A DNA stretch of 15,028 bases from NCBI GenBank assembly GCA_000004985.1, contig GG738983.1. The stretch is one strand, 5' to 3'. Positions 1 to 15,028 of the stretch are shown piece by piece (the stretch's first letter is position 1; every line of letters begins with the position of its first letter). The DNA comes from Naegleria gruberi (lineage: Eukaryota). The position numbers and the translations under genes were made by a program. Under the pieces are notes generated by a model. That model was given only the letters and a program-made list of their open reading frames with translations. It was not told the DNA's origin and made no database searches.

Positions 1-628
1 TATTATCATTAATATTTAAATCATGATTATATTCATCAGATAAAGATATAGCCATATCTAAAATAGATCTATAACCAGTACATCTACATAAATTACCATC
101 TAAAGATAATTCAATTTGTTTAATTGTAGGCTTTGAATAATTTCTTAATAAGGAATATAAACTCATAATAATACCAGGTGTACAAAAACCACATTGTAAA
201 GCATTAAATTAAACAACTTTACTTTTTAATAAAGTTAAAATTGAATCTTGTTTAATACCTTCTATAGTAATAATAGAACATCCATCTAAATGTATTAATG
301 GATATAAACAGGCATTAATAGAATAATTAATAATCTTATTTTGTAATGTATCATATTTAGATAACATTACAATACAACTACCACATCCACCTTCTGAACA
401 ACCTATTTTAGTACCTGTTAATTTTAAATATTCTCTCAAATATTCTGCTAAATTTAATTTAATTAATAAATTATTTAATTTTAATTCAATACGTTCACCA
501 TTAACATAAAATAATATTTTACTATTATTATTATTTGTATTATTATTTTCAAGTTGAACTTGATCATCATTAAAATTGAAAGTTAATGATGCTGATGATG
601 ATTTAATATCATTATTATTGATTATCAT
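1..628 (-). CDS. xdh: Xanthine dehydrogenase/aldehyde oxidase family protein, N-terminal part with two [2Fe-2S] iron-sulfur domains; partial, the 3' end runs beyond window position 1; single in-frame TAA at 209-211
   Basis: Minus-strand translation from ATG 628-626 gives [125 protein letters not shown]. This matches the plant-type ferredoxin-like 2Fe-2S domain of XDH/AOX (FxVNG..., TGTKxGCxEGGCGxCxVMxSxYD, NACL). After the TAA at 209-211 the same frame continues [51 protein letters not shown], the second 2Fe-2S motif (QCGFCTPG...[12 protein letters not shown]). The poly-Asn insert is low-complexity. The ORF-track start at 634 is a TTG; the first ATG is 628-626. Confidence 0.85.
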
Positions 629-1150: not shown

Positions 1151-4100
1151 NNNNNNNNNNNNNNNNNNNNNNNNNNNNNNNNNNNNNNNNNNNNNNNNNN
1201 NNNNNNNNNNNNNNNNNNNNNNNNNNNNNNNNNNNNNNNNNNNNNNNNNNNNNNNNNNNNNNNNNNNNNNNNNNNNNNNNNNNNNNNNNNNNNNNNNNNN
1301 NNNNNNNNNNNNNNNNNNNNNNNNNNNNNNNNNNNNNNNNNNNNNNNNNNNNNNNNNNNNNNNNNNNNNNNNNNNNNNNNNNNNNNNNNNNNNNNNNNNN
1401 NNNNNNNNNNNNNNNNNNNNNNNNNNNNNNNNNNNNNNNNNNNNNNNNNNNNNNNNNNNNNNNNNNNNNNNNNNNNNNNNNNNNNNNNNNNNNNNNNNNN
1501 NNNNNNNNNNNNNNNNNNNNNNNNNNNNNNNNNNNNNNNNNNNNNNNNNNNNNNNNNNNNNNNNNNNNNNNNNNNNNNNNNNNNNNNNNNNNNNNNNNNN
1601 NNNNNNNNNNNNNNNNNNNNNNNNNNNNNNNNNNNNNNNNNNNNNNNNNNNNNNNNNNNNNNNNNNNNNNNNNNNNNNNNNNNNNNNNNNNNNNNNNNNN
1701 NNNNNNNNNNNNNNNNNNNNNNNNNNNNNNNNNNNNNNNNNNNNNNNNNNNNNNNNNNNNNNNNNNNNNNNNNNNNNNNNNNNNNNNNNNNNNNNNNNNN
1801 NNNNNNNNNNNNNNNNNNNNNNNNNNNNNNNNNNNNNNNNNNNNNNNNNNNNNNNNNNNNNNNNNNNNNNNNNNNNNNNNNNNNNNNNNNNNNNNNNNNN
1901 NNNNNNNNNNNNNNNNNNNNNNNNNNNNNNNNNNNNNNNNNNNNNNNNNNNNNNNNNNNNNNNNNNNNNNNNNNNNNNNNNNNNNNNNNNNNNNNNNNNN
2001 NNNNNNNNNNNNNNNNNNNNNNNNNNNNNNNNNNNNNNNNNNNNNNNNNNNNNNNNNNNNNNNNNNNNNNNNNNNNNNNNNNNNNNNNNNNNNNNNNNNN
2101 NNNNNNNNNNNNNNNNNNNNNNNNNNNNNNNNNNNNNNNNNNNNNNNNNNNNNNNNNNNNNNNNNNNNNNNNNNNNNNNNNNNNNNNNNNNNNNNNNNNN
2201 NNNNNNNNNNNNNNNNNNNNNNNNNNNNNNNNNNNNNNNNNNNNNNNNNNNNNNNNNNNNNNNNNNNNNNNNNNNNNNNNNNNNNNNNNNNNNNNNNNNN
2301 NNNNNNNNNNNNNNNNNNNNNNNNNNNNNNNNNNNNNNNNNNNNNNNNNNNNNNNNNNNNNNNNNNNNNNNNNNNNNNNNNNNNNNNNNNNNNNNNNNNN
2401 NNNNNNNNNNNNNNNNNNNNNNNNNNNNNNNNNNNNNNNNNNNNNNNNNNNNNNNNNNNNNNNNNNNNNNNNNNNNNNNNNNNNNNNNNNNNNNNNNNNN
2501 NNNNNNNNNNNNNNNNNNNNNNNNNNNNNNNNNNNNNNNNNNNNNNNNNNNNNNNNNNNNNNNNNNNNNNNNNNNNNNNNNNNNNNNNNNNNNNNNNNNN
2601 NNNNNNNNNNNNNNNNNNNNNNNNNNNNNNNNNNNNNNNNNNNNNNNNNNNNNNNNNNNNNNNNNNNNNNNNNNNNNNNNNNNNNNNNNNNNNNNNNNNN
2701 NNNNNNNNNNNNNNNNNNNNNNNNNNNNNNNNNNNNNNNNNNNNNNNNNNNNNNNNNNNNNNNNNNNNNNNNNNNNNNNNNNNNNNNNNNNNNNNNNNNN
2801 NNNNNNNNNNNNNNNNNNNNNNNNNNNNNNNNNNNNNNNNNNNNNNNNNNNNNNNNNNNNNNNNNNNNNNNNNNNNNNNNNNNNNNNNNNNNNNNNNNNN
2901 NNNNNNNNNNNNNNNNNNNNNNNNNNNNNNNNNNNNNNNNNNNNNNNNNNNNNNNNNNNNNNNNNNNNNNNNNNNNNNNNNNNNNNNNNNNNNNNNNNNN
3001 NNNNNNNNNNNNNNNNNNNNNNNNNNNNNNNNNNNNNNNNNNNNNNNNNNNNNNNNNNNNNNNNNNNNNNNNNNNNNNNNNNNNNNNNNNNNNNNNNNNN
3101 NNNNNNNNNNNNNNNNNNNNNNNNNNNNNNNNNNNNNNNNNNNNNNNNNNNNNNNNNNNNNNNNNNNNNNNNNNNNNNNNNNNNNNNNNNNNNNNNNNNN
3201 NNNNNNNNNNNNNNNNNNNNNNNNNNNNNNNNNNNNNNNNNNNNNNNNNNNNNNNNNNNNNNNNNNNNNNNNNNNNNNNNNNNNNNNNNNNNNNNNNNNN
3301 NNNNNNNNNNNNNNNNNNNNNNNNNNNNNNNNNNNNNNNNNNNNNNNNNNNNNNNNNNNNNNNNNNNNNNNNNNNNNNNNNNNNNNNNNNNNNNNNNNNN
3401 NNNNNNNNNNNNNNNNNNNNNNNNNNNNNNNNNNNNNNNNNNNNNNNNNNNNNNNNNNNNNNNNNNNNNNNNNNNNNNNNNNNNNNNNNNNNNNNNNNNN
3501 NNNNNNNNNNNNNNNNNNNNNNNNNNNNNNNNNNNNNNNNNNNNNNNNNNNNNNNNNNNNNNNNNNNNNNNNNNNNNNNNNNNNNNNNNNNNNNNNNNNN
3601 NNNNNNNNNNNNNNNNNNNNNNNNNNNNNNNNNNNNNNNNNNNNNNNNNNNNNNNNNNNNNNNNNNNNNNNNNNNNNNNNNNNNNNNNNNNNNNNNNNNN
3701 NNNNNNNNNNNNNNNNNNNNNNNNNNNNNNNNNNNNNNNNNNNNNNNNNNNNNNNNNNNNNNNNNNNNNNNNNNNNNNNNNNNNNNNNNNNNNNNNNNNN
3801 NNNNNNNNNNNNNNNNNNNNNNNNNNNNNNNNNNNNNNNNNNNNNNNNNNNNNNNNNNNNNNNNNNNNNNNNNNNNNNNNNNNNNNNNNNNNNNNNNNNN
3901 NNNNNNNNNNNNNNNNNNNNNNNNNNNNNNNNNNNNNNNNNNNNNNNNNNNNNNNNNNNNNNNNNNNNNNNNNNNNNNNNNNNNNNNNNNNNNNNNNNNN
4001 NNNNNNNNNNNNNNNNNNNNNNNNNNNNNNNNNNNNNNNNNNNNNNNNNNNNNNNNNNNNNNNNNNNNNNNNNNNNNNNNNNNNNNNNNNNNNNNNNNNN

Positions 4101-6124
4101 NNNNNNNNNNNNNNNNNNNNNNNNNNNNNNNNNNNNNNNNNNNNNNNNNNNNNNNNNNNNNNNNNNNNNNNNNNNNNNNNNNNNNNNNNNNNNNNNNNNN
4201 NNNNNNNNNNNNNNNNNNNNNNNNNNNNNNNNNNNNNNNNNNNNNNNNNNNNNNNNNNNNNNNNNNNNNNNNNNNNNNNNNNNNNNNNNNNNNNNNNNNN
4301 NNNNNNNNNNNNNNNNNNNNNNNNNNNNNNNNNNNNNNNNNNNNNNNNNNNNNNNNNNNNNNNNNNNNNNNNNNNNNNNNNNNNNNNNNNNNNNNNNNNN
4401 NNNNNNNNNNNNNNNNNNNNNNNNNNNNNNNNNNNNNNNNNNNNNNNNNNNNNNNNNNNNNNNNNNNNNNNNNNNNNNNNNNNNNNNNNNNNNNNNNNNN
4501 NNNNNNNNNNNNNNNNNNNNNNNNNNNNNNNNNNNNNNNNNNNNNNNNNNNNNNNNNNNNNNNNNNNNNNNNNNNNNNNNNNNNNNNNNNNNNNNNNNNN
4601 NNNNNNNNNNNNNNNNNNNNNNNNNNNNNNNNNNNNNNNNNNNNNNNNNNNNNNNNNNNNNNNNNNNNNNNNNNNNNNNNNNNNNNNNNNNNNNNNNNNN
4701 NNNNNNNNNNNNNNNNNNNNNNNNNNNNNNNNNNNNNNNNNNNNNNNNNNNNNNNNNNNNNNNNNNNNNNNNNNNNNNNNNNNNNNNNNNNNNNNNNNNN
4801 NNNNNNNNNNNNNNNNNNNNNNNNNNNNNNNNNNNNNNNNNNNNNNNNNNNNNNNNNNNNNNNNNNNNNNNNNNNNNNNNNNNNNNNNNNNNNNNNNNNN
4901 NNNNNNNNNNNNNNNNNNNNNNNNNNNNNNNNNNNNNNNNNNNNNNNNNNNNNNNNNNNNNNNNNNNNNNNNNNNNNNNNNNNNNNNNNNNNNNNNNNNN
5001 NNNNNNNNNNNNNNNNNNNNNNNNNNNNNNNNNNNNNNNNNNNNNNNNNNNNNNNNNNNNNNNNNNNNNNNNNNNNNNNNNNNNNNNNNNNNNNNNNNNN
5101 NNNNNNNNNNNNNNNNNNNNNNNNNNNNNNNNNNNNNNNNNNNNNNNNNNNNNNNNNNNNNNNNNNNNNNNNNNNNNNNNNNNNNNNNNNNNNNNNNNNN
5201 NNNNNNNNNNNNNNNNNNNNNNNNNNNNNNNNNNNNNNNNNNNNNNNNNNNNNNNNNNNNNNNNNNNNNNNNNNNNNNNNNNNNNNNNNNNNNNNNNNNN
5301 NNNNNNNNNNNNNNNNNNNNNNNNNNNNNNNNNNNNNNNNNNNNNNNNNNNNNNNNNNNNNNNNNNNNNNNNNNNNNNNNNNNNNNNNNNNNNNNNNNNN
5401 NNNNNNNNNNNNNNNNNNNNNNNNNNNNNNNNNNNNNNNNNNNNNNNNNNNNNNNNNNNNNNNNNNNNNNNNNNNNNNNNNNNNNNNNNNNNNNNNNNNN
5501 NNNNNNNNNNNNNNNNNNNNNNNNNNNNNNNNNNNNNNNNNNNNNNNNNNNNNNNNNNNNNNNNNNNNNNNNNNNNNNNNNNNNNNNNNNNNNNNNNNNN
5601 NNNNNNNNNNNNNNNNNNNNNNNNNNNNNNNNNNNNNNNNNNNNNNNNNNNNNNNNNNNNNNNNNNNNNNNNNNNNNNNNNNNNNNNNNNNNNNNNNNNN
5701 NNNNNNNNNNNNNNNNNNNNNNNNNNNNNNNNNNNNNNNNNNNNNNNNNNNNNNNNNNNNNNNNNNNNNNNNNNNNNNNNNNNNNNNNNNNNNNNNNNNN
5801 NNNNNNNNNNNNNNNNNNNNNNNNNNNNNNNNNNNNNNNNNNNNNNNNNNNNNNNNNNNNNNNNNNNNNNNNNNNNNNNNNNNNNNNNNNNNNNNNNNNN
5901 NNNNNNNNNNNNNNNNNNNNNNNNNNNNNNNNNNNNNNNNNNNNNNNNNNNNNNNNNNNNNNNNNNNNNNNNNNNNNNNNNNNNNNNNNNNNNNNNNNNN
6001 NNNNNNNNNNNNNNNNNNNNNNNNNNNNNNNNNNNNNNNNNNNNNNNNNNNNNNNNNNNNNNNNNNNNNNNNNNNNNNNNNNNNNNNNNNNNNNNNNNNN
6101 NNNNNNNNNNNNNNNNNNNNNNNN
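1151..6124. other. Assembly gap (run of 4974 N)
   Basis: Uninterrupted n characters. All ORF-track entries spanning it (1049..6127, 1112..6154, 1128..6161) are poly-X artifacts. Confidence 0.99.
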
Positions 6125-6468
6125 CATACCTTTTCAAGCTCCAGAAATTCGTAAAAAGCAAAACTATGATGAAAAGATTGACATTTACAGTCTTGGGGCT
6201 ACTTTATTGTATCTCAAAAACAAGACCTCATATGAAATAATCTGTAAAAAAGACGAATTTGATCTTCAAGTTGACATGCAAACACTCCAATGGGATGATT
6301 TTAAATTTGGAAAAAATATTGGAAATGGTTAATGAAGATCCAAAGAAAAGACCTTCAGCTCAAGAGCTTGCCGATTATTTTACTACTCTTTACAACAACC
6401 CACAAACAACAAACGCAGAAACTAAAGACCAAGAAGATTTCGAAATGCTTTATGATCAAGAAAGATAA
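6125..6468 (+). CDS. Protein kinase, C-terminal lobe only (subdomains VIII-XI); the 5' part is lost in gap 1. The reading frame shifts by +1 between about 6290 and 6330 (frame 0 stops at 6330-6332, frame 1 continues to the stop at 6466-6468).
   Basis: Frame starting at 6126 reads IPFQAPEIRKKQNYDEKIDIYSLGATLLYLKNKTSYEIICKKDEFDLQVDMQTLQWDDFKFGKNIGNG*. This holds the APE motif and the D-x-W-S-x-G-like subdomain IX (DIYSLG). The frame containing 6259 reads ...ILNLEKILEMVNEDPKKRPSAQELADYFTTLYNNPQTTNAETKDQEDFEMLYDQER*, the subdomain XI DPxxRP motif. Removing one A from the A6 run at 6311-6316 gives the continuous ...WDDFKFGKILEMVNEDPKKRPSAQELADYF. Confidence 0.8.
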
Positions 6469-6912: not shown

Positions 6913-7980
6913 ATGTCTGAAGATTGGGTTTGTTTTGTGATGCAATTTTATTAATGGGTGTGATGACCATCACAAATAACAGGCCGATAGGACGTATGTG
7001 TTGGAAGCTGTTAAACAACGTGGAAATGCACTTGAATATGTAGATGAATCATTTAAAAAAGATAGAGAATTTATATTGGAAGCTGTAAAACATAATGGAT
7101 GGGAACTTTTATATGTTGATTCATCATTGAAAAAAGATAGGGAAATTGTATTGGAAGCTGTTAAACATAATGGATCAGCTCTCGAATATGCTGATTCATC
7201 ATTGAAAAAAGATAGAGAAATTGTACTGGAAGCTGTTAAACAAAATGGATCAGCACTTAAATATGCTGATTCATTATTTAAAAGAGATAGAGAAATTGTA
7301 TTGGAATTTGTTAAACATAATGGATCAGCACTTAAATATGTTGATTCTTCATTGAAAAAAGATAGAGAAATTGTATTGGAAGCTGTTAAACAATGTGGAC
7401 ATGCAGTTCAATATGCTGATTTATTCATTGAAAAAAGATAGAGAAATTGTATTGGAAGCTGTTAAACAATGTGGACATGCAGTTGAATATGCTGATTATT
7501 ATTCAAAAAGATAGAGAAATTGTATTGGAATCTGTTAAACAAAATGGATCAGCACTTGTATATGCTGATTCATCATTTAAAAAAGATAGAGAAATTGTAT
7601 TGGAAGCTGTTAAACAACATGAATTGGCACTTGAATATGCTGATTCATCTTTACAAAGAGATATCGTTTTTATATATTCACTTTTTAAATTGAACAAAGA
7701 AAATACAAGAAGCTTCTCACCCTCTATAACCAAAACCATTGAAGAAGCCAATATTAATCTTCAGAGAAAGCTGTCAAGCAATATAATTGAACAGCAATAC
7801 TCCAAAATATTTATGGATGAAAAGGATTTATATTATGCTATTGAATTAACAAGTCTCTTTAATCCAACACCAAAAGGTACAATATTCAATTTCAATTCTA
7901 TCTATACACCAATATTTGTTGAAAAGCTTGATTATTTTCCAAATATTGAAACGAATGAACCATTCAGAATTATCCACTGA
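6913..7980 (+). CDS. DUF4116-like tandem-repeat protein (about 8 copies of a 31-aa repeat, consensus SALEYADSSLKKDREIVLEAVKQNG) plus a non-repetitive roughly 100-aa C-terminal tail. Proposed model is join(6913..6927, 6983..7980) with a 55-nt intron. The frame is disrupted by a +1 indel near 7427 and a -2 indel near 7487 (net -1).
   Basis: ORF-track pieces 6998..7441 and 7447..7980 both encode the same 31-aa repeat (LEAVKxNGxALxYxDSSLKKDREIV). The first piece has no internal Met, and an in-frame TAA at 6977-6979 lies just upstream, so a spliced 5' exon is needed. aaaaaaaATGTCTGAAGATTGG (6913-6927) followed by GTTTGT...AATAACAG (6928-6982) joins in frame to GCC GAT AGG ACG TAT... The protein ends at TGA 7978-7980, just before gap 2. 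The name DUF4116 is assigned from memory of the Pfam repeat motif (ALxYAxxxLxxDxExVLxAVxxNG), not from a search. Confidence 0.7.
6928..6982 (+). other. Putative 55-nt intron of the DUF4116-like gene (GTTTGT...AACAG); an alternative donor at 6937 (GTGATG) gives a 46-nt intron
   Basis: Inferred only from the need to join an ATG-containing exon to the Met-less repeat ORF in the same phase. The donor is non-canonical. It contains a small inverted repeat gtgatg-ac-catcac (6961-6974). Confidence 0.35.
7001..7670 (+). repeat. In-frame coding tandem array of 93-bp units (about 7.5 copies, roughly 85-95% identical). Units 5 (7373-7466) and 6 (7467-7557) are near-identical duplicates (QCGHAV variant), 94 and 91 nt long.
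   Basis: Direct reading of the sequence. ttggaagctgttaaacaa...gattcatcattgaaaaaagatagagaaattgta recurs with a 93-nt period. Unit 5 has gatttattcattg where the canonical unit has gattcatcattg (+1). Unit 6 has gattattattcaaaaagatagag where the canonical unit has gattcatcattgaaaaaagatagag (-2). Confidence 0.9.
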
Positions 7981-8000
7981 AACTCTTCTTTCAGCCAACT

Positions 8001-11000
8001 NNNNNNNNNNNNNNNNNNNNNNNNNNNNNNNNNNNNNNNNNNNNNNNNNNNNNNNNNNNNNNNNNNNNNNNNNNNNNNNNNNNNNNNNNNNNNNNNNNNN
8101 NNNNNNNNNNNNNNNNNNNNNNNNNNNNNNNNNNNNNNNNNNNNNNNNNNNNNNNNNNNNNNNNNNNNNNNNNNNNNNNNNNNNNNNNNNNNNNNNNNNN
8201 NNNNNNNNNNNNNNNNNNNNNNNNNNNNNNNNNNNNNNNNNNNNNNNNNNNNNNNNNNNNNNNNNNNNNNNNNNNNNNNNNNNNNNNNNNNNNNNNNNNN
8301 NNNNNNNNNNNNNNNNNNNNNNNNNNNNNNNNNNNNNNNNNNNNNNNNNNNNNNNNNNNNNNNNNNNNNNNNNNNNNNNNNNNNNNNNNNNNNNNNNNNN
8401 NNNNNNNNNNNNNNNNNNNNNNNNNNNNNNNNNNNNNNNNNNNNNNNNNNNNNNNNNNNNNNNNNNNNNNNNNNNNNNNNNNNNNNNNNNNNNNNNNNNN
8501 NNNNNNNNNNNNNNNNNNNNNNNNNNNNNNNNNNNNNNNNNNNNNNNNNNNNNNNNNNNNNNNNNNNNNNNNNNNNNNNNNNNNNNNNNNNNNNNNNNNN
8601 NNNNNNNNNNNNNNNNNNNNNNNNNNNNNNNNNNNNNNNNNNNNNNNNNNNNNNNNNNNNNNNNNNNNNNNNNNNNNNNNNNNNNNNNNNNNNNNNNNNN
8701 NNNNNNNNNNNNNNNNNNNNNNNNNNNNNNNNNNNNNNNNNNNNNNNNNNNNNNNNNNNNNNNNNNNNNNNNNNNNNNNNNNNNNNNNNNNNNNNNNNNN
8801 NNNNNNNNNNNNNNNNNNNNNNNNNNNNNNNNNNNNNNNNNNNNNNNNNNNNNNNNNNNNNNNNNNNNNNNNNNNNNNNNNNNNNNNNNNNNNNNNNNNN
8901 NNNNNNNNNNNNNNNNNNNNNNNNNNNNNNNNNNNNNNNNNNNNNNNNNNNNNNNNNNNNNNNNNNNNNNNNNNNNNNNNNNNNNNNNNNNNNNNNNNNN
9001 NNNNNNNNNNNNNNNNNNNNNNNNNNNNNNNNNNNNNNNNNNNNNNNNNNNNNNNNNNNNNNNNNNNNNNNNNNNNNNNNNNNNNNNNNNNNNNNNNNNN
9101 NNNNNNNNNNNNNNNNNNNNNNNNNNNNNNNNNNNNNNNNNNNNNNNNNNNNNNNNNNNNNNNNNNNNNNNNNNNNNNNNNNNNNNNNNNNNNNNNNNNN
9201 NNNNNNNNNNNNNNNNNNNNNNNNNNNNNNNNNNNNNNNNNNNNNNNNNNNNNNNNNNNNNNNNNNNNNNNNNNNNNNNNNNNNNNNNNNNNNNNNNNNN
9301 NNNNNNNNNNNNNNNNNNNNNNNNNNNNNNNNNNNNNNNNNNNNNNNNNNNNNNNNNNNNNNNNNNNNNNNNNNNNNNNNNNNNNNNNNNNNNNNNNNNN
9401 NNNNNNNNNNNNNNNNNNNNNNNNNNNNNNNNNNNNNNNNNNNNNNNNNNNNNNNNNNNNNNNNNNNNNNNNNNNNNNNNNNNNNNNNNNNNNNNNNNNN
9501 NNNNNNNNNNNNNNNNNNNNNNNNNNNNNNNNNNNNNNNNNNNNNNNNNNNNNNNNNNNNNNNNNNNNNNNNNNNNNNNNNNNNNNNNNNNNNNNNNNNN
9601 NNNNNNNNNNNNNNNNNNNNNNNNNNNNNNNNNNNNNNNNNNNNNNNNNNNNNNNNNNNNNNNNNNNNNNNNNNNNNNNNNNNNNNNNNNNNNNNNNNNN
9701 NNNNNNNNNNNNNNNNNNNNNNNNNNNNNNNNNNNNNNNNNNNNNNNNNNNNNNNNNNNNNNNNNNNNNNNNNNNNNNNNNNNNNNNNNNNNNNNNNNNN
9801 NNNNNNNNNNNNNNNNNNNNNNNNNNNNNNNNNNNNNNNNNNNNNNNNNNNNNNNNNNNNNNNNNNNNNNNNNNNNNNNNNNNNNNNNNNNNNNNNNNNN
9901 NNNNNNNNNNNNNNNNNNNNNNNNNNNNNNNNNNNNNNNNNNNNNNNNNNNNNNNNNNNNNNNNNNNNNNNNNNNNNNNNNNNNNNNNNNNNNNNNNNNN
10001 NNNNNNNNNNNNNNNNNNNNNNNNNNNNNNNNNNNNNNNNNNNNNNNNNNNNNNNNNNNNNNNNNNNNNNNNNNNNNNNNNNNNNNNNNNNNNNNNNNNN
10101 NNNNNNNNNNNNNNNNNNNNNNNNNNNNNNNNNNNNNNNNNNNNNNNNNNNNNNNNNNNNNNNNNNNNNNNNNNNNNNNNNNNNNNNNNNNNNNNNNNNN
10201 NNNNNNNNNNNNNNNNNNNNNNNNNNNNNNNNNNNNNNNNNNNNNNNNNNNNNNNNNNNNNNNNNNNNNNNNNNNNNNNNNNNNNNNNNNNNNNNNNNNN
10301 NNNNNNNNNNNNNNNNNNNNNNNNNNNNNNNNNNNNNNNNNNNNNNNNNNNNNNNNNNNNNNNNNNNNNNNNNNNNNNNNNNNNNNNNNNNNNNNNNNNN
10401 NNNNNNNNNNNNNNNNNNNNNNNNNNNNNNNNNNNNNNNNNNNNNNNNNNNNNNNNNNNNNNNNNNNNNNNNNNNNNNNNNNNNNNNNNNNNNNNNNNNN
10501 NNNNNNNNNNNNNNNNNNNNNNNNNNNNNNNNNNNNNNNNNNNNNNNNNNNNNNNNNNNNNNNNNNNNNNNNNNNNNNNNNNNNNNNNNNNNNNNNNNNN
10601 NNNNNNNNNNNNNNNNNNNNNNNNNNNNNNNNNNNNNNNNNNNNNNNNNNNNNNNNNNNNNNNNNNNNNNNNNNNNNNNNNNNNNNNNNNNNNNNNNNNN
10701 NNNNNNNNNNNNNNNNNNNNNNNNNNNNNNNNNNNNNNNNNNNNNNNNNNNNNNNNNNNNNNNNNNNNNNNNNNNNNNNNNNNNNNNNNNNNNNNNNNNN
10801 NNNNNNNNNNNNNNNNNNNNNNNNNNNNNNNNNNNNNNNNNNNNNNNNNNNNNNNNNNNNNNNNNNNNNNNNNNNNNNNNNNNNNNNNNNNNNNNNNNNN
10901 NNNNNNNNNNNNNNNNNNNNNNNNNNNNNNNNNNNNNNNNNNNNNNNNNNNNNNNNNNNNNNNNNNNNNNNNNNNNNNNNNNNNNNNNNNNNNNNNNNNN

Positions 11001-12527
11001 NNNNNNNNNNNNNNNNNNNNNNNNNNNNNNNNNNNNNNNNNNNNNNNNNNNNNNNNNNNNNNNNNNNNNNNNNNNNNNNNNNNNNNNNNNNNNNNNNNNN
11101 NNNNNNNNNNNNNNNNNNNNNNNNNNNNNNNNNNNNNNNNNNNNNNNNNNNNNNNNNNNNNNNNNNNNNNNNNNNNNNNNNNNNNNNNNNNNNNNNNNNN
11201 NNNNNNNNNNNNNNNNNNNNNNNNNNNNNNNNNNNNNNNNNNNNNNNNNNNNNNNNNNNNNNNNNNNNNNNNNNNNNNNNNNNNNNNNNNNNNNNNNNNN
11301 NNNNNNNNNNNNNNNNNNNNNNNNNNNNNNNNNNNNNNNNNNNNNNNNNNNNNNNNNNNNNNNNNNNNNNNNNNNNNNNNNNNNNNNNNNNNNNNNNNNN
11401 NNNNNNNNNNNNNNNNNNNNNNNNNNNNNNNNNNNNNNNNNNNNNNNNNNNNNNNNNNNNNNNNNNNNNNNNNNNNNNNNNNNNNNNNNNNNNNNNNNNN
11501 NNNNNNNNNNNNNNNNNNNNNNNNNNNNNNNNNNNNNNNNNNNNNNNNNNNNNNNNNNNNNNNNNNNNNNNNNNNNNNNNNNNNNNNNNNNNNNNNNNNN
11601 NNNNNNNNNNNNNNNNNNNNNNNNNNNNNNNNNNNNNNNNNNNNNNNNNNNNNNNNNNNNNNNNNNNNNNNNNNNNNNNNNNNNNNNNNNNNNNNNNNNN
11701 NNNNNNNNNNNNNNNNNNNNNNNNNNNNNNNNNNNNNNNNNNNNNNNNNNNNNNNNNNNNNNNNNNNNNNNNNNNNNNNNNNNNNNNNNNNNNNNNNNNN
11801 NNNNNNNNNNNNNNNNNNNNNNNNNNNNNNNNNNNNNNNNNNNNNNNNNNNNNNNNNNNNNNNNNNNNNNNNNNNNNNNNNNNNNNNNNNNNNNNNNNNN
11901 NNNNNNNNNNNNNNNNNNNNNNNNNNNNNNNNNNNNNNNNNNNNNNNNNNNNNNNNNNNNNNNNNNNNNNNNNNNNNNNNNNNNNNNNNNNNNNNNNNNN
12001 NNNNNNNNNNNNNNNNNNNNNNNNNNNNNNNNNNNNNNNNNNNNNNNNNNNNNNNNNNNNNNNNNNNNNNNNNNNNNNNNNNNNNNNNNNNNNNNNNNNN
12101 NNNNNNNNNNNNNNNNNNNNNNNNNNNNNNNNNNNNNNNNNNNNNNNNNNNNNNNNNNNNNNNNNNNNNNNNNNNNNNNNNNNNNNNNNNNNNNNNNNNN
12201 NNNNNNNNNNNNNNNNNNNNNNNNNNNNNNNNNNNNNNNNNNNNNNNNNNNNNNNNNNNNNNNNNNNNNNNNNNNNNNNNNNNNNNNNNNNNNNNNNNNN
12301 NNNNNNNNNNNNNNNNNNNNNNNNNNNNNNNNNNNNNNNNNNNNNNNNNNNNNNNNNNNNNNNNNNNNNNNNNNNNNNNNNNNNNNNNNNNNNNNNNNNN
12401 NNNNNNNNNNNNNNNNNNNNNNNNNNNNNNNNNNNNNNNNNNNNNNNNNNNNNNNNNNNNNNNNNNNNNNNNNNNNNNNNNNNNNNNNNNNNNNNNNNNN
12501 NNNNNNNNNNNNNNNNNNNNNNNNNNN
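8001..12527. other. Assembly gap (run of 4527 N). It swallows the 3' end of the minus-strand Cys-rich gene and lies just downstream of the DUF4116-like gene stop.
   Basis: Uninterrupted n characters. ORF-track entries 7916..12532, 7991..12547 and the 7846..12527 portion of 7846..15021 are artifacts. Confidence 0.99.
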
Positions 12528-15028
12528 TGTAATTGTAATTTTGACAATAATTATTATTAGAAATTAAACTAATGTAAATTGGAACTGTCAAGGTAAGAAC
12601 AACTCCAGAAGAATCTAATTGTTGAGTGACTCTTGAATCAGAAATCAAATCAGAAATAGAAGTAGAAATAGAATATTGAGTTTCACATGTCAATTGACTT
12701 GTAGAATTTGTGACAAGATCAGTAACATTTCTTTCACAAGTAGAAATTTCAGAGAATGATAATCTTGTCATGTTTGTAGATCTTGAAAGAATATTAGAAA
12801 CTGAAATGGTATACATAATCTTTGAAGATCCTAAATTTGTAACTGAAACCTTTGGCGGAGAATTAATAAACGAAAGACAATTCTCCGTCTGAATTTCACA
12901 CATTGAACCACTTGAATATGGAGGACATGTGAGACAAGATGTGGAATTGATACAACTTTCACATGTAGATGGACAAGTATTACTACAATCTGAACCATAT
13001 AATCCATTAAAACATTTAGAACATTGATTTGGAGATGAACATGTAATGCAATTCTCATTACAAACTGGAATTTGACATGTTGGACCTGTCCATCCAGATC
13101 TACATGTTGAACATGATACCTCTGATGAACATGATTTGCAATTAGATGGGCATGTTATATTACAATAACTTCCATAATATCCTTCATTACATTCTAAACA
13201 ATCACCTGTACTTGTTGAACAGGTTGCACAATTGGAAACTTTACAAACTTTCTCATTACAATATTGACCTTTCAAACCATCTAAACACTTATTACATGTT
13301 TCACTTGATGAACATACTTCACAATTAACTAAACATTTGAGTCTACATAATTTAGAAGTATCATAAAATCCACTCTTACATGATTGACAATTAGATGCAG
13401 ATGGAAGACAATTAGAAACTGAACTAATCTCACAATTAGTACCATTATATCCATTTGGACATGAACAATTATTAGGTGAGAGACATGAACCAATACCAGA
13501 ACATACACTAGCAACATCAGCTCTCTTTCCACCACAAATTGGAACTTCACAATTAATTCCTGCATAACCTGTTTTACAATAACACATATCCATCTCTTCA
13601 CAAATTCCATTTCCACTACATACATTAGGATCTGAATCAAATAATCCATTACACATGGTTGGTGAATAAATAATATTTCCAATAACTTGCTTTCCACCAC
13701 CACCTCCCCATATCGTACCTGTAGTAGGTGAATTTGTTCCTGGATATGGAAATTTATAGAAATCTCCTAGAATGTAATTATTACCATTATATGCTGTGAA
13801 CAAAAGAGAGTTATAATTTTGTATGAATGTTATTCTAGTGATTCTCTCAGATGTTCCAATAAATGATGTAGATAAGAGTGTTGGATAGGAAACTCTTGGT
13901 AGTAATGACCCCCAGTAACCTGTGTAAAATATTTTTCCACTCTCCATTAGATACAATACGAAATATTGTGCAAAAGTAATGGACAAGAGAATTTCACTTC
14001 CAAAAGTAGTAATATCTAATTCCAGTGGTGAATATTGGCAAAGGCCAGTATTTGTACCGTAGTAACTATCAGAAATTGGACCCCAACCATATAATCTTCT
14101 TGATTCTCTACTGTAAGCGAAACATAAATATCGAGAATGGCAAGAAAGGTATGAAATTTTGTGTGGAATAGCTAATTTTGTAAAGTTGGTTTTGTAAACT
14201 CCAAAAAATCCACTTGGACAACATCCAGCAACAGATAATTCACCAAAAGATCTAACATTTCCTTCTTTAGTCAAAAAAAAGGAAAAGTAATTATTTGTAT
14301 AAACATCAATAAATGTCTCATTAATACCAGTATTGTATATCATTGTTGGAGAAATAGGGAATGAAACATAAGGACTTTGTGGAGTAATTATTAAAATACC
14401 TGGAACAGATGTTGTTGCCATGAATAATGTAGAGGAACTAGATAGACTTGTAAAAGGTGCAAATGTAGCATTATTGAAAAGTAATGTACTACTTGCAGCT
14501 GCAGACTGTGTTGGAAGCGTAAAGCCGAATATAACATCTCTTCTATTTCCAATGCTGAAAAAGCCATTTGATTCAAAATATCTAATACGATATGGTAAGA
14601 CTCCATCAATTCCAGCGGTAGTTGTAATTGTAGATCTAAAATAATTTGGACCAGTTGAGCAAGTTTGTCCAGTAAAACCAGCATCACATTTTGTGCAAGT
14701 CTTATCATCTGAACAAGTCAAACAATTAGGAATGCATGTAAAAGAACAAGTAGCACCAAATGTTCTTGGTAAACATGATGAACACAAATATGGTGTTGAA
14801 CATTTAAGGCAATTTTCTGGACAAATAACTGAGGAACAATTAACGCCTCCATAACCAGAGTTACAAACACAAACACCGTCAATACATTGACCATTCGCAC
14901 AATTGGTACATTTAGGTGCACATGTTGGTGGTGGAGAGGATGTTATAGAATTCTTACATGTCAAACAACTTGTTGCACTCTTACATGTTAAACAATTAGG
15001 ATTACAATAGAATTGACACAATGGACCG
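12528..15028 (-). CDS. Large cysteine-rich secreted/surface protein, partial at both ends (5' end beyond window position 15028, 3' end in gap 2). Contains tenascin/EGF-like and furin-like Cys repeats, a central RCC1-like beta-propeller-like domain, a second EGF-like repeat array, an S/T-rich stalk and a hydrophobic segment.
   Basis: Continuous minus-strand ORF from 15021 down to the gap edge (about 830 codons) with standard-code Gln codons throughout. It opens with repeats such as CNPNCLTCKSATSCLTCKNS and CPENCLKCSTPYLCSSCLPRTFGATCSFTCIPNCLTCSDDKTCTKCDAGFTGQTC, and later CPSNCKSCSSEVSCSTCRSGWTGPTCQIPVCNENCITCSSPNQCSKCFNGLYGSDC (period about 31-32 aa). N-x-S/T sequons are frequent (NATF, NFTK, NETF, NITC, NGTN, NSTS, NMTR, NVTD). 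Confidence 0.85.
12562..12603 (-). other. Hydrophobic segment VVLTLTVPIYISLI (candidate transmembrane helix) immediately before the gap edge
   Basis: 14 mostly aliphatic residues following the S/T-rich stalk and followed by SNNNYCQNYNY. The usual basic stop-transfer residues are not visible because the sequence enters the gap. Confidence 0.35.
12604..12894 (-). other. Ser/Thr-rich, N-glycosylation-sequon-dense stalk-like region
   Basis: LSFINSPPKVSVTNLGSSKIMYTISVSNILSRSTNMTRLSFSEISTCERNVTDLVTNSTSQLTCETQYSISTSISDLISDSRVTQQLDSSG. It is low in Cys, and S+T exceed 35% by eye. Confidence 0.55.
12895..13656 (-). repeat. Second EGF/tenascin-like repeat array (about 8 units of 31-32 aa)
   Basis: Runs from MCNGLFDSDPNVCSGNGICEEMDMCYCKTGYAGINCEVPICGG through CPSTCESCINSTSCLTCPPYSSGSMCEIQTENC with regular 6-8 Cys per unit and G-x-x-G-x-x-C endings. 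Confidence 0.75.
13657..14646 (-). other. Central Cys-poor domain of about 330 aa with RCC1-like repeat signatures (putative beta-propeller), ending in a GGGGG linker (13695-13709)
   Basis: Motifs RRLYGWGPISDSYYGTNTGLCQYSPLEL, AQYFVLYLMESGKIFYTGYWGSLLP and NYFSFFLTKEGNVRSFGELSVAGC match the RCC1/BLIP-II blade pattern (hs-ala-Lt-dG-kvYtWG-n-GqLG...P). Inference from motif memory only. Confidence 0.4.
14647..15028 (-). repeat. N-terminal (in this window) tenascin/EGF-like cysteine-rich repeat block of the Cys-rich protein
   Basis: C-x2-C-x(4-6)-C-x2-C-x(5-8)-G-x2-C spacing repeated at least 4 times, ending ...CTKCDAGFTGQTCSTGP. Confidence 0.7.

What the first reader, a model, noticed from the sequence alone, without database searches (positions are those of the whole stretch)
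7373..7560. Two adjacent, near-identical DUF4116-like repeat units each carry a frame-breaking indel (+1, -2)
Units 5 and 6 are a recent tandem duplicate (both encode LEAVKQCGHAV[Q/E]YAD, unlike the other units). Unit 5 has an extra T in gatttattcattg and unit 6 lacks 2 nt in the A-run, so the frame changes from phase 2 to phase 1. Downstream units 7-8 and the C-terminal tail are again clean repeats in the new frame. Either this is an assembly collapse or mis-consensus of a 93-bp minisatellite, and the true copy number may differ, or it is a gene caught in the act of decaying. Repeat-number variation here would be expected between strains.
Basis: seen in the sequence. Interest (0 to 1): 0.5.

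Follow-up and report, generated by a model that had tools for sequence, protein, structure and literature searches.

The report
Frame-broken DUF4116-repeat kinase gene fragment
Two neighbouring 75-base repeat units of a Naegleria-type repeat-plus-kinase gene do carry frame-breaking indels, but these belong to a cluster of four indels in a 1.9-kb stretch between two runs of N, so this is either poor sequence or a very young dead gene, and ordinary either way.

Summary
The core observation holds. Two adjacent, near-identical repeat units are 76 nt (7377-7452, +1) and 73 nt (7453-7525, -2), and the frame goes 2 -> 0 -> 1. The details are wrong. The period is 75 nt (25 aa), not 93. The units are numbers 6 and 7 of nine. 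The 'clean C-terminal tail' has a third frameshift, an extra base at 7930. It is not a C-terminus either, because the frame runs open into the N run at 8001. With three conceptual repairs the product (339 aa, no stops) aligns end to end with Naegleria gruberi XP_002679510.1 residues 111-442 at 73% identity. That protein has 13 DUF4116 units, a linker and a Ser/Thr kinase domain. No GT-AG intron restores the repeat periodicity, and no recoding signal fits. A fourth probable frameshift sits in the kinase gene just upstream. All four indels lie in the 1,876 bases between the two N runs, while 2.5 kb of a neighbouring gene is unbroken. There are no in-frame stops after repair and no excess of amino-acid change. 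I lean towards base-calling or consensus error (about 0.55) over a very young pseudogene (about 0.38). Only reads can settle it. Interest is low.

The parts
6983..7663 (+). Array of nine 75-nt (25-aa) DUF4116 repeat units, preceded by a partial unit (DRTYV...). There is no in-frame ATG.
   Evidence: TRF period 75, 8.9 copies, score 880. Unit starts. Pfam PF13475 311.7 bits against a cut-off of 24.9. AF2 model of 6983-7420: pLDDT 88.5, all-helical, three short helices per unit.
7377..7452 (+). Unit 6, 76 nt. The +1 lesion lies within GATTTATTCATTG (7418-7430). Frame 2 runs into TAG at 7439-7441.
   Evidence: ORF 6998-7441.
7453..7525 (+). Unit 7, 73 nt. The -2 lesion lies within GATTATTATTCAAAAAGAT (7494-7512). 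Frame 0 runs into TAG at 7512-7514.
   Evidence: ORF 7371-7514. tblastn frame-3 HSP 7431-7511.
7526..7929 (+). Units 8-9 plus the conserved linker, read in frame 1. It is 79% identical to N. gruberi XP_002679510.1 residues 283-426.
   Evidence: tblastn. Representative search, 82% over the tail. Identity of P0241.
7930..7930 (+). Third frameshift. One extra base (CTT-G-ATT ATT) moves the conserved reading from frame 1 to frame 2.
   Evidence: Frame 2 reads LIIFQILKRMNHSELS. P0241 has EKLIIFQILKQMNHSELS and P0057 has EKLIIVQILKS.
7931..8000 (+). Continuation of the linker in frame 2, open up to the N run. The kinase domain expected from the homologues would lie in or beyond 8001-12527.
   Evidence: P0241 architecture: DUF4116, then linker, then Pkinase at 551-771. 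L002 has the same order.
6913..6982 (+). Possible start (inference only): an ATG mini-exon at 6913-6927 (MSEDW), then a 55-nt GT...AG interval at 6928-6982 that would join in frame to 6983.
   Evidence: Read from the sequence. Not tested against transcripts or against an intron model for the organism.
6125..6468 (+). C-terminal part of a separate protein kinase gene. A probable +1-class frameshift lies at the A6 run 6311-6316. It sits in the same stretch between the N runs.
   Evidence: The frame-1 piece matches Pkinase positions 163-204 only. With one repair the match extends to 258 of 263. ...DPKKRPSAQEL is a typical subdomain XI motif (established knowledge).

Best explanation
Window 6983-8000 is the 5' part of a Naegleria-type DUF4116-repeat Ser/Thr kinase gene. 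It holds nine 25-aa helical repeat units and then a conserved linker. It is collinear with N. gruberi XP_002679510.1 residues 111-442.

If intact, the product would be an alpha-helical solenoid, presumably a binding scaffold, placed N-terminal to a kinase domain. That domain would lie in the N run.

As written, the frame is broken three times: +1 at 7418-7430, -2 at 7494-7512 and +1 at 7930.

The most likely cause is single-base indel errors in base calling or consensus. They fall in a short, poorly supported contig (6125-8000) between two assembly gaps, in a region made of tandem repeats and multi-copy family sequence.

On this reading the true gene is intact, and the true number of QCGHAV-type units may differ.

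Shown: the anatomy, the homology and the lesion positions. Inferred: that the lesions are errors, and that the N runs are assembly gaps.
For: 1. All four frame-breaking indels lie in the 1,876 bases between the N runs at 1151-6124 and 8001-12527. There are three in this gene and one in the upstream kinase gene. The 2.5-kb Cys-rich ORF at 12528-15021 and the 628-nt XDH-like ORF have no frameshift. At the island's rate of 4 per 1,876 nt, about 6.6 would be expected there.
2. Three or four single-base indel events cluster in 95 nt (7418-7512). Outside that stretch units 6 and 7 differ by one substitution.
3. After three repairs the 339 codons contain no stop, although 6.85% of random substitutions would create one.
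4. The repaired product is 73% identical to XP_002679510.1 over 334 aa with only 2 gaps (E 8e-162).
5. With P0057 as outgroup, window-specific changes number 3 against 7 for the N. gruberi protein. The window's copy therefore shows no relaxed constraint.
6. Units 6 and 7, with their preceding flanks, share a 59-nt exact stretch, which invites mis-assembly or mis-consensus.
Against: - No reads or quality values are available, so error is inferred and not shown.
- The lesions in units 6 and 7 are not plain homopolymer miscalls. Each combines indels with a neighbouring substitution. The extra base at 7930 is not in a homopolymer.
- The gene has no in-frame ATG, and it starts level with residue 111 of its closest homologue. 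Indel error does not explain that.
- An in-frame TAA (209-211) in the XDH-like gene, on a different contig, shows the window may also contain real lesions.
- Both N runs are multiples of 3 in length (4974 and 4527). If they are masks and not assembly gaps, the 'low-quality island' argument weakens, although the clustering remains.
Confidence: 0.55

Rival explanations
1. A real, very young pseudogene, or a segregating null allele. A functional DUF4116-kinase paralogue recently acquired frameshifts by replication slippage in AT-rich low-complexity tracts (ATTATT, A-runs) inside a tandem array. It is now truncated after about 5.8 repeats. The neighbouring kinase gene died as well.
For: Three frameshifts, with stops at 7439-7441 and 7512-7514 and an out-of-frame TGA at 7978. 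No in-frame ATG, and 4 units fewer than XP_002679510.1 at the 5' end. The lesions are complex, not simple homopolymer miscalls. The neighbouring kinase is frameshifted and the XDH-like gene has an in-frame TAA. Large protist gene families commonly carry dead copies (general knowledge).
Against: No nonsense codon in 339 repaired codons. If about 30 neutral substitutions had accompanied 3 indels, P is about 0.12. There is no excess of lineage-specific amino-acid change, 3 versus 7. Two adjacent genes would have to have been hit by four indels and essentially no substitution decay. The indels are confined to the stretch between the N runs.
Confidence: 0.38
2. Assembly collapse or expansion of the array. 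The true genome has a different number of QCGHAV-type units, and the two aberrant units are chimeric consensus built from several real copies. This is a special case of the artefact explanation.
For: Units 6 and 7 share a 59-nt exact stretch with their flanks. The array sits in a 1.9-kb piece between N runs. Family members differ in unit number, 9, 13 and about 8.
Against: Collapse alone yields whole-unit changes, not +1 or -2 indels. It does not explain the indels at 7930 and 6311-6316, which lie outside the array.
Confidence: 0.2
3. Programmed recoding. The mRNA is read through by +1 ribosomal frameshifting or corrected by transcript editing. All four breaks are of the +1 (mod 3) class, and the three in this gene sum to zero, so the kinase domain would be back in the starting frame.
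For: All four lesions are +1 mod 3. Frames run 2 -> 0 -> 1 -> 2. Both repeat lesions run into the same AAA-AGA-TAG context. Protein conservation is kept across all frames with no decay.
Against: The conserved reading resumes upstream of each stop: LKKDRE in units 6 and 7, and IIFQILKRMNHSELS before the TGA. A shift at the stop codon would therefore lose conserved residues. The four sites share no slippery motif. The homologues P0241 and P0057 encode the same regions in a single frame. The shared TAG follows automatically from reading this repeat out of frame. All four being of one class has a chance probability of about 0.125.
Confidence: 0.03
4. Short spliceosomal introns remove the frame-breaking stretches.
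For: The source looks eukaryotic. A plausible 55-nt GT-AG interval exists just upstream at 6928-6982.
Against: I enumerated all single GT...AG excisions that give an open frame from 6983 to 7980. There are 80. None keeps the 25-aa periodicity. Each either reads unit 7 out of frame or deletes part of a unit, and none has a consensus-like donor. Units 7-9 and the linker are conserved as protein.
Confidence: 0.02

Closest known systems
Naegleria gruberi NEG-M XP_002679510.1 / EFC46766.1, 'serine-threonine kinase', 934 aa (P0241)
   Same: N-terminal DUF4116 array followed by the same linker. 73% identity over 334 aa with 2 gaps to the repaired product, and 79-82% in the linker.
   Different: It has 13 units against 9, an ATG start and a single open frame. 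Its Pkinase domain (551-771) and coiled coil are present. In the window the frame is broken three times, no in-frame ATG is seen, and the kinase part would fall in the N run. The window's other genes have no close match in the protein collection, so the source is a relative and not the annotated N. gruberi gene set.
Pfam PF13475 (DUF4116), a helical repeat of unknown function found in protists such as Naegleria and in bacteria
   Same: Strong match, E 3.8e-95. The model predicts an all-helical solenoid, in line with the alpha-solenoid model reported in PMC8078820.
   Different: The Pfam model spans 49 residues, about two of the 25-aa units seen here. No solved structure matches significantly (best Foldseek E 0.28). 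The function is unknown.
P0057 on L002 (ENA metagenome contig ERZ929261), DUF4116 array plus linker plus kinase
   Same: Collinear, with about 8 units and the same linker including EKLIIVQILK. 43% identity. The kinase domain follows in the same frame.
   Different: The repeat and linker part is one intact 393-aa ORF. It is separated from the kinase part by a single in-frame TAG and not by frameshifts.

Membership tests
DUF4116 repeat proteins (Pfam PF13475) | Score above the Pfam gathering threshold | tested here: met
   311.7 bits against a cut-off of 24.9, 5 stretches, on the repaired translation. The raw frames also align to DUF4116 units of P0241 by tblastn.
DUF4116 repeat proteins (Pfam PF13475) | Tandem helical repeat architecture | tested here: met
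   Nine 25-aa units. AF2 model with pLDDT 88.5, all-helical.
Naegleria-type DUF4116-repeat Ser/Thr kinases (XP_002679510.1-like) | DUF4116 array followed by the family-specific linker | tested here: met
   73% identity, collinear with residues 111-442. The linker found only this relative among 1.84 billion representatives.
Naegleria-type DUF4116-repeat Ser/Thr kinases (XP_002679510.1-like) | Protein kinase domain downstream of the linker | not testable with these tools
   The sequence after 8000 is a 4,527-base run of N.
Naegleria-type DUF4116-repeat Ser/Thr kinases (XP_002679510.1-like) | Single uninterrupted reading frame with a start codon | tested here: not met
   Three frame changes and no in-frame ATG.
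Pseudogene (decaying gene) | Frame disruptions or premature stops relative to intact homologues | tested here: met
   provided the sequence is correct.
Pseudogene (decaying gene) | Signs of relaxed constraint: nonsense substitutions and excess lineage-specific replacements | tested here: not met
   0 stops in 339 repaired codons. 3 window-specific against 7 P0241-specific changes. The numbers are small, and no DNA of the homologue was available for dN/dS.
Pseudogene (decaying gene) | Lesions confirmed in reads or independent assemblies | not testable with these tools
   The window was not found in genome contigs or viral contigs. The metagenome scan gave only repeat-level relatives.
Programmed +1 ribosomal frameshift sites (RF2, antizyme, Euplotes type) | Shift at a defined slippery or stop-codon motif shared by the sites | tested here: not met
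   The conserved reading resumes upstream of each stop, and the four sites share no motif.
Programmed +1 ribosomal frameshift sites (RF2, antizyme, Euplotes type) | Frameshift conserved in homologues | tested here: not met
   P0241 and P0057 are single-frame through the same regions.
   The period is 75 nt.

The most novel reading that the evidence does not exclude
The indels are real and the gene is still expressed as a full-length repeat-kinase protein. That would need obligatory +1 recoding, or transcript-level correction, at several sites in a heterolobosean amoeba. All four breaks are +1-class, the three in this gene sum to zero, and there is no substitution decay. This would be widespread frameshift tolerance of the kind so far documented in Euplotes.
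Probability: 0.03. Interest if true: 0.7.

Novelty: new member of a known kind. Interest (0 to 1): 0.12.

Why it matters
It matters little. At most it flags a low-quality or decaying copy of a lineage-specific DUF4116-repeat kinase gene in an unannotated relative of Naegleria. The practical points are for annotation. The three ORF fragments belong to one gene. That gene continues into the gap. The apparent stop at 7978 is not its end. Indels in this stretch should be checked against reads before anything here is called a pseudogene. The function of DUF4116 repeats is still unknown, and their recurrent fusion to kinase domains hints at a scaffold or targeting role.

Tried and rejected
- Exact look-up of the frame-1 ORF product: not on record.
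- Look-ups of the N. gruberi proteins P0241 and P0022 for their DNA: not on record. No dN/dS was therefore possible.
- Exact DNA search for a 39-mer of the linker in genome contigs and viral contigs: 0 hits.
- Metagenome scan with units 8-9 plus the linker: 147 relatives, all matching the repeats only and none the linker.
- XDH-like and Cys-rich neighbours used as taxonomic probes: best identities 48% and 49%, the latter over 15% coverage. The source genome could not be named.
- Rfam and tRNA scans of the window: nothing.
- Intron rescue: rejected.
- Variant genetic code with TAA or TAG as a sense codon, considered because of the in-frame TAA in the XDH-like gene and the TAG in L002: rejected for the window. 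The 831-codon Cys-rich ORF and the repeat gene encode every Gln with CAA or CAG. The region after the kinase TAA is littered with stops.
- Frameshifting at the TAG stops: rejected, because the conserved residues lie upstream of the stops.
- A single 3-nt deletion relating units 6 and 7, which would imply a shared ancestral +1: it does not fit the alignment.
- Foldseek against the PDB: no significant match.

Full report
**What is in the sequence**

Only about 5.5 kb of the 15,028-base window is real sequence. Positions 1151-6124 (4,974 bases) and 8001-12527 (4,527 bases) are N. GC content is 30%.

Tandem Repeats Finder reports one strong array at 6997-7663, with period 75, 8.9 copies, 85% matches and score 880. 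Anchoring on TGGAAGCTGTTAAACA gives unit starts at 7002, 7077, 7152, 7227, 7302, 7377, 7453, 7526 and 7601. Seven units are exactly 75 nt. Unit 6 (7377-7452) is 76 nt and unit 7 (7453-7525) is 73 nt.

These two units alone carry CAATGTGGACATGCAGTT (QCGHAV). Outside a stretch of about 20 nt they differ by one substitution. Inside that stretch (7418-7430 and 7494-7512) they differ from each other by three 1-nt gaps and a substitution, and from the consensus by +1 and -2.

The ORF list shows the consequence: 6998-7441 in frame 2, 7371-7514 in frame 0 and 7447-7980 in frame 1.

The unit length (93, 94 and 91 nt) is wrong, and the unit numbering is off by one.

**What the repeat is**

The conceptually repaired translation matches Pfam DUF4116 (PF13475) at E 3.8e-95. 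An AlphaFold2 single-sequence model of the untouched frame-2 segment (6983-7420, 146 aa) has pLDDT 88.5. It is entirely helical, with three short helices per 25-aa unit. This agrees with the alpha-solenoid model published for the family (PMC8078820). Foldseek found no significant solved relative, with a best E of 0.28.

**What the gene is**

A word-indexed search with the whole repaired protein returned only repeat-level relatives at 65% identity or less. Several were Naegleria proteins. One metagenomic protein, P0057, is collinear through the tail.

An exhaustive HMMER search with the tail alone found one real relative among 1.84 billion representatives. This is P0241, at 82% identity. P0241 is Naegleria gruberi NEG-M XP_002679510.1, 'serine-threonine kinase', 934 aa. 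Its architecture is 13 DUF4116 units, a linker, a Pkinase domain at 551-771 and a coiled coil.

The contig that carries P0057 has the same order, with a kinase domain following the linker. The 'C-terminal tail' is therefore a linker to a kinase domain.

**A third frameshift**

Aligning the window to P0241 and P0057 shows that frame 1 is conserved only up to ...IYTPIFVEKL (7929). The conserved continuation, IIFQILKRMNHSELS..., is in frame 2 from 7931. One extra base sits at 7930, in CTT-G-ATT.

The TGA at 7978-7980 is thus out of frame, and the conserved frame is open up to the N run at 8001.

With three repairs the 339-aa product has no stop. It aligns with P0241 residues 111-442 at 73% identity over 334 aa with 2 gaps, E 8e-162.

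Frame 2 has no in-frame ATG upstream of the array. An ATG mini-exon at 6913-6927 followed by a 55-nt GT...AG interval would join in frame. This is inference only.

**Context**

- Upstream, 6125-6468 encodes the C-terminal part of another protein kinase. The frame-1 piece matches Pkinase positions 163-204. The classic ...DPKKRPSAQEL end is in frame 2. One repair at the A6 run 6311-6316 extends the match to position 258. This is a fourth, probable, +1-class frameshift.
- On the minus strand, 1-628 encodes the 2Fe-2S N-terminus of a xanthine-dehydrogenase-like protein. It has an in-frame TAA at 209-211.
- Also on the minus strand, 12528-15021 is an unbroken 831-codon Cys-rich EGF/teneurin-like ORF.
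- Neither of those two has a close relative in the protein collection. The window was not found in the prokaryotic or viral contig collections. The source is best described as an unannotated relative of Naegleria gruberi.

**Readings that can be set aside**

*Introns.* Of 80 single GT...AG excisions that open the frame, none preserves the 25-aa periodicity. Units 7-9 and the linker are conserved as protein.

*Variant genetic code.* Every Gln in the long ORFs is CAA or CAG, and the non-coding stretches are full of stops.

*Programmed frameshifting.* All four breaks are +1 (mod 3). Both repeat lesions hit the same AAA-AGA-TAG. The three breaks in this gene sum to zero. However:
- the TAG follows automatically from reading this repeat out of frame;
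- the conserved residues resume upstream of every stop;
- the four sites share no motif;
- the homologues are single-frame.

I give this reading about 3%.

**Error or young pseudogene?**

For error:
- All four indels lie in the 1,876 bases between the N runs. More than 3 kb of flanking coding sequence has none, where about 6.6 would be expected at the same rate.
- Three or four single-base indel events are packed into 95 nt of otherwise near-identical units.
- There are no nonsense codons after repair, although 6.85% of random substitutions would make one.
- With P0057 as outgroup, the window has 3 lineage-specific replacements against 7 for the N. gruberi protein.
- Two adjacent genes are affected.

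For a real lesion:
- The changes are not simple homopolymer miscalls.
- There is no in-frame ATG.
- The XDH-like gene on another contig has a nonsense codon.
- I cannot show that the N runs are assembly gaps. Both lengths are multiples of three, although their ends do not match gene ends.

I put error at about 0.55 and a very young pseudogene or null allele at about 0.38. Without reads the two cannot be separated.

**Verdict**

This is a correct but imprecisely described observation on an ordinary object. It is a frame-disrupted member of a known repeat-plus-kinase family in a draft eukaryotic sequence. Interest is low.

Noticed in passing
One extra base moves the conserved reading from frame 1 back to frame 2. 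The TGA at 7978-7980 is therefore not the gene's stop, and the ORF runs into the N run.
   Followed up: yes
window 6125-6468 (+), A6 run at 6311-6316: C-terminal part of a separate protein kinase gene. The subdomain IX region (IDIYSLGATLLYL) is in frame 1 and the subdomain XI region (DPKKRPSAQEL) is in frame 2. One repair at the A-run extends the Pfam match from model position 204 to 258.
   Followed up: partly
window 1-628 (-), TAA at 209-211: N-terminus of a xanthine-dehydrogenase-like protein (Fer2 plus Fer2_2). It has an in-frame TAA at a position aligned to Lys/Ser just before the conserved QCGFCTPG. This segment has only 21% GC against about 30-33% elsewhere, and it contains Asn-rich low-complexity runs.
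   Followed up: partly
window 12528-15028 (-): An unbroken Cys-rich EGF/teneurin-like ORF of at least 831 codons, cut by the N run and by the window end. It has a central non-Cys region and a probable C-terminal membrane helix. The only hit in 5.8 billion proteins is at 49% identity over 15% of the query.
   Followed up: partly
window 1151-6124 and 8001-12527: Two N runs of 4,974 and 4,527 bases. Both lengths are exact multiples of 3. Their ends fall inside genes (kinase domain, linker, Cys-rich ORF) and not at gene boundaries. I could not decide whether they are assembly gaps or masks.
   Followed up: no
window 6913-6982: A possible ATG mini-exon (MSEDW) followed by a 55-nt GTTTGT...ACAG interval that would splice in frame onto the first repeat unit. 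Otherwise the gene has no in-frame start codon.
   Followed up: no
L002 about 2780-2785 (ENA ERZ929261 metagenome contig, GC 34%): In the homologous gene, the DUF4116-plus-linker ORF (P0057) and the kinase-domain ORF are in the same frame. They are separated by a single TAG, aligned to a Gln of N. gruberi XP_002679510.1. This could be a nonsense mutation, readthrough or an error.
   Followed up: no
window 7399-7405 and 7475-7481: Units 6 and 7 share GGACATGCA where the other units have GGATCAGCA. This looks like a compensated -1/+1 indel pair (Ser to His) that predates their duplication.
   Followed up: no
window 781 and 881: A 10-nt direct repeat, GGTTCATGGA, occurs twice 100 nt apart in the intergenic segment 641-1150 (32% GC, against 21% for the adjacent XDH-like segment 1-640). 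No Rfam or tRNA hit.
   Followed up: no
L001 (ENA ERZ25039523 contig_17084, 3.12 Mb): The best repeat-level hits come from a head-to-tail cluster of at least five DUF4116 genes on one 3.1-Mb contig. The three whose sequences I read share an N-terminal region. The genes look intron-less and may be bacterial.
   Followed up: no
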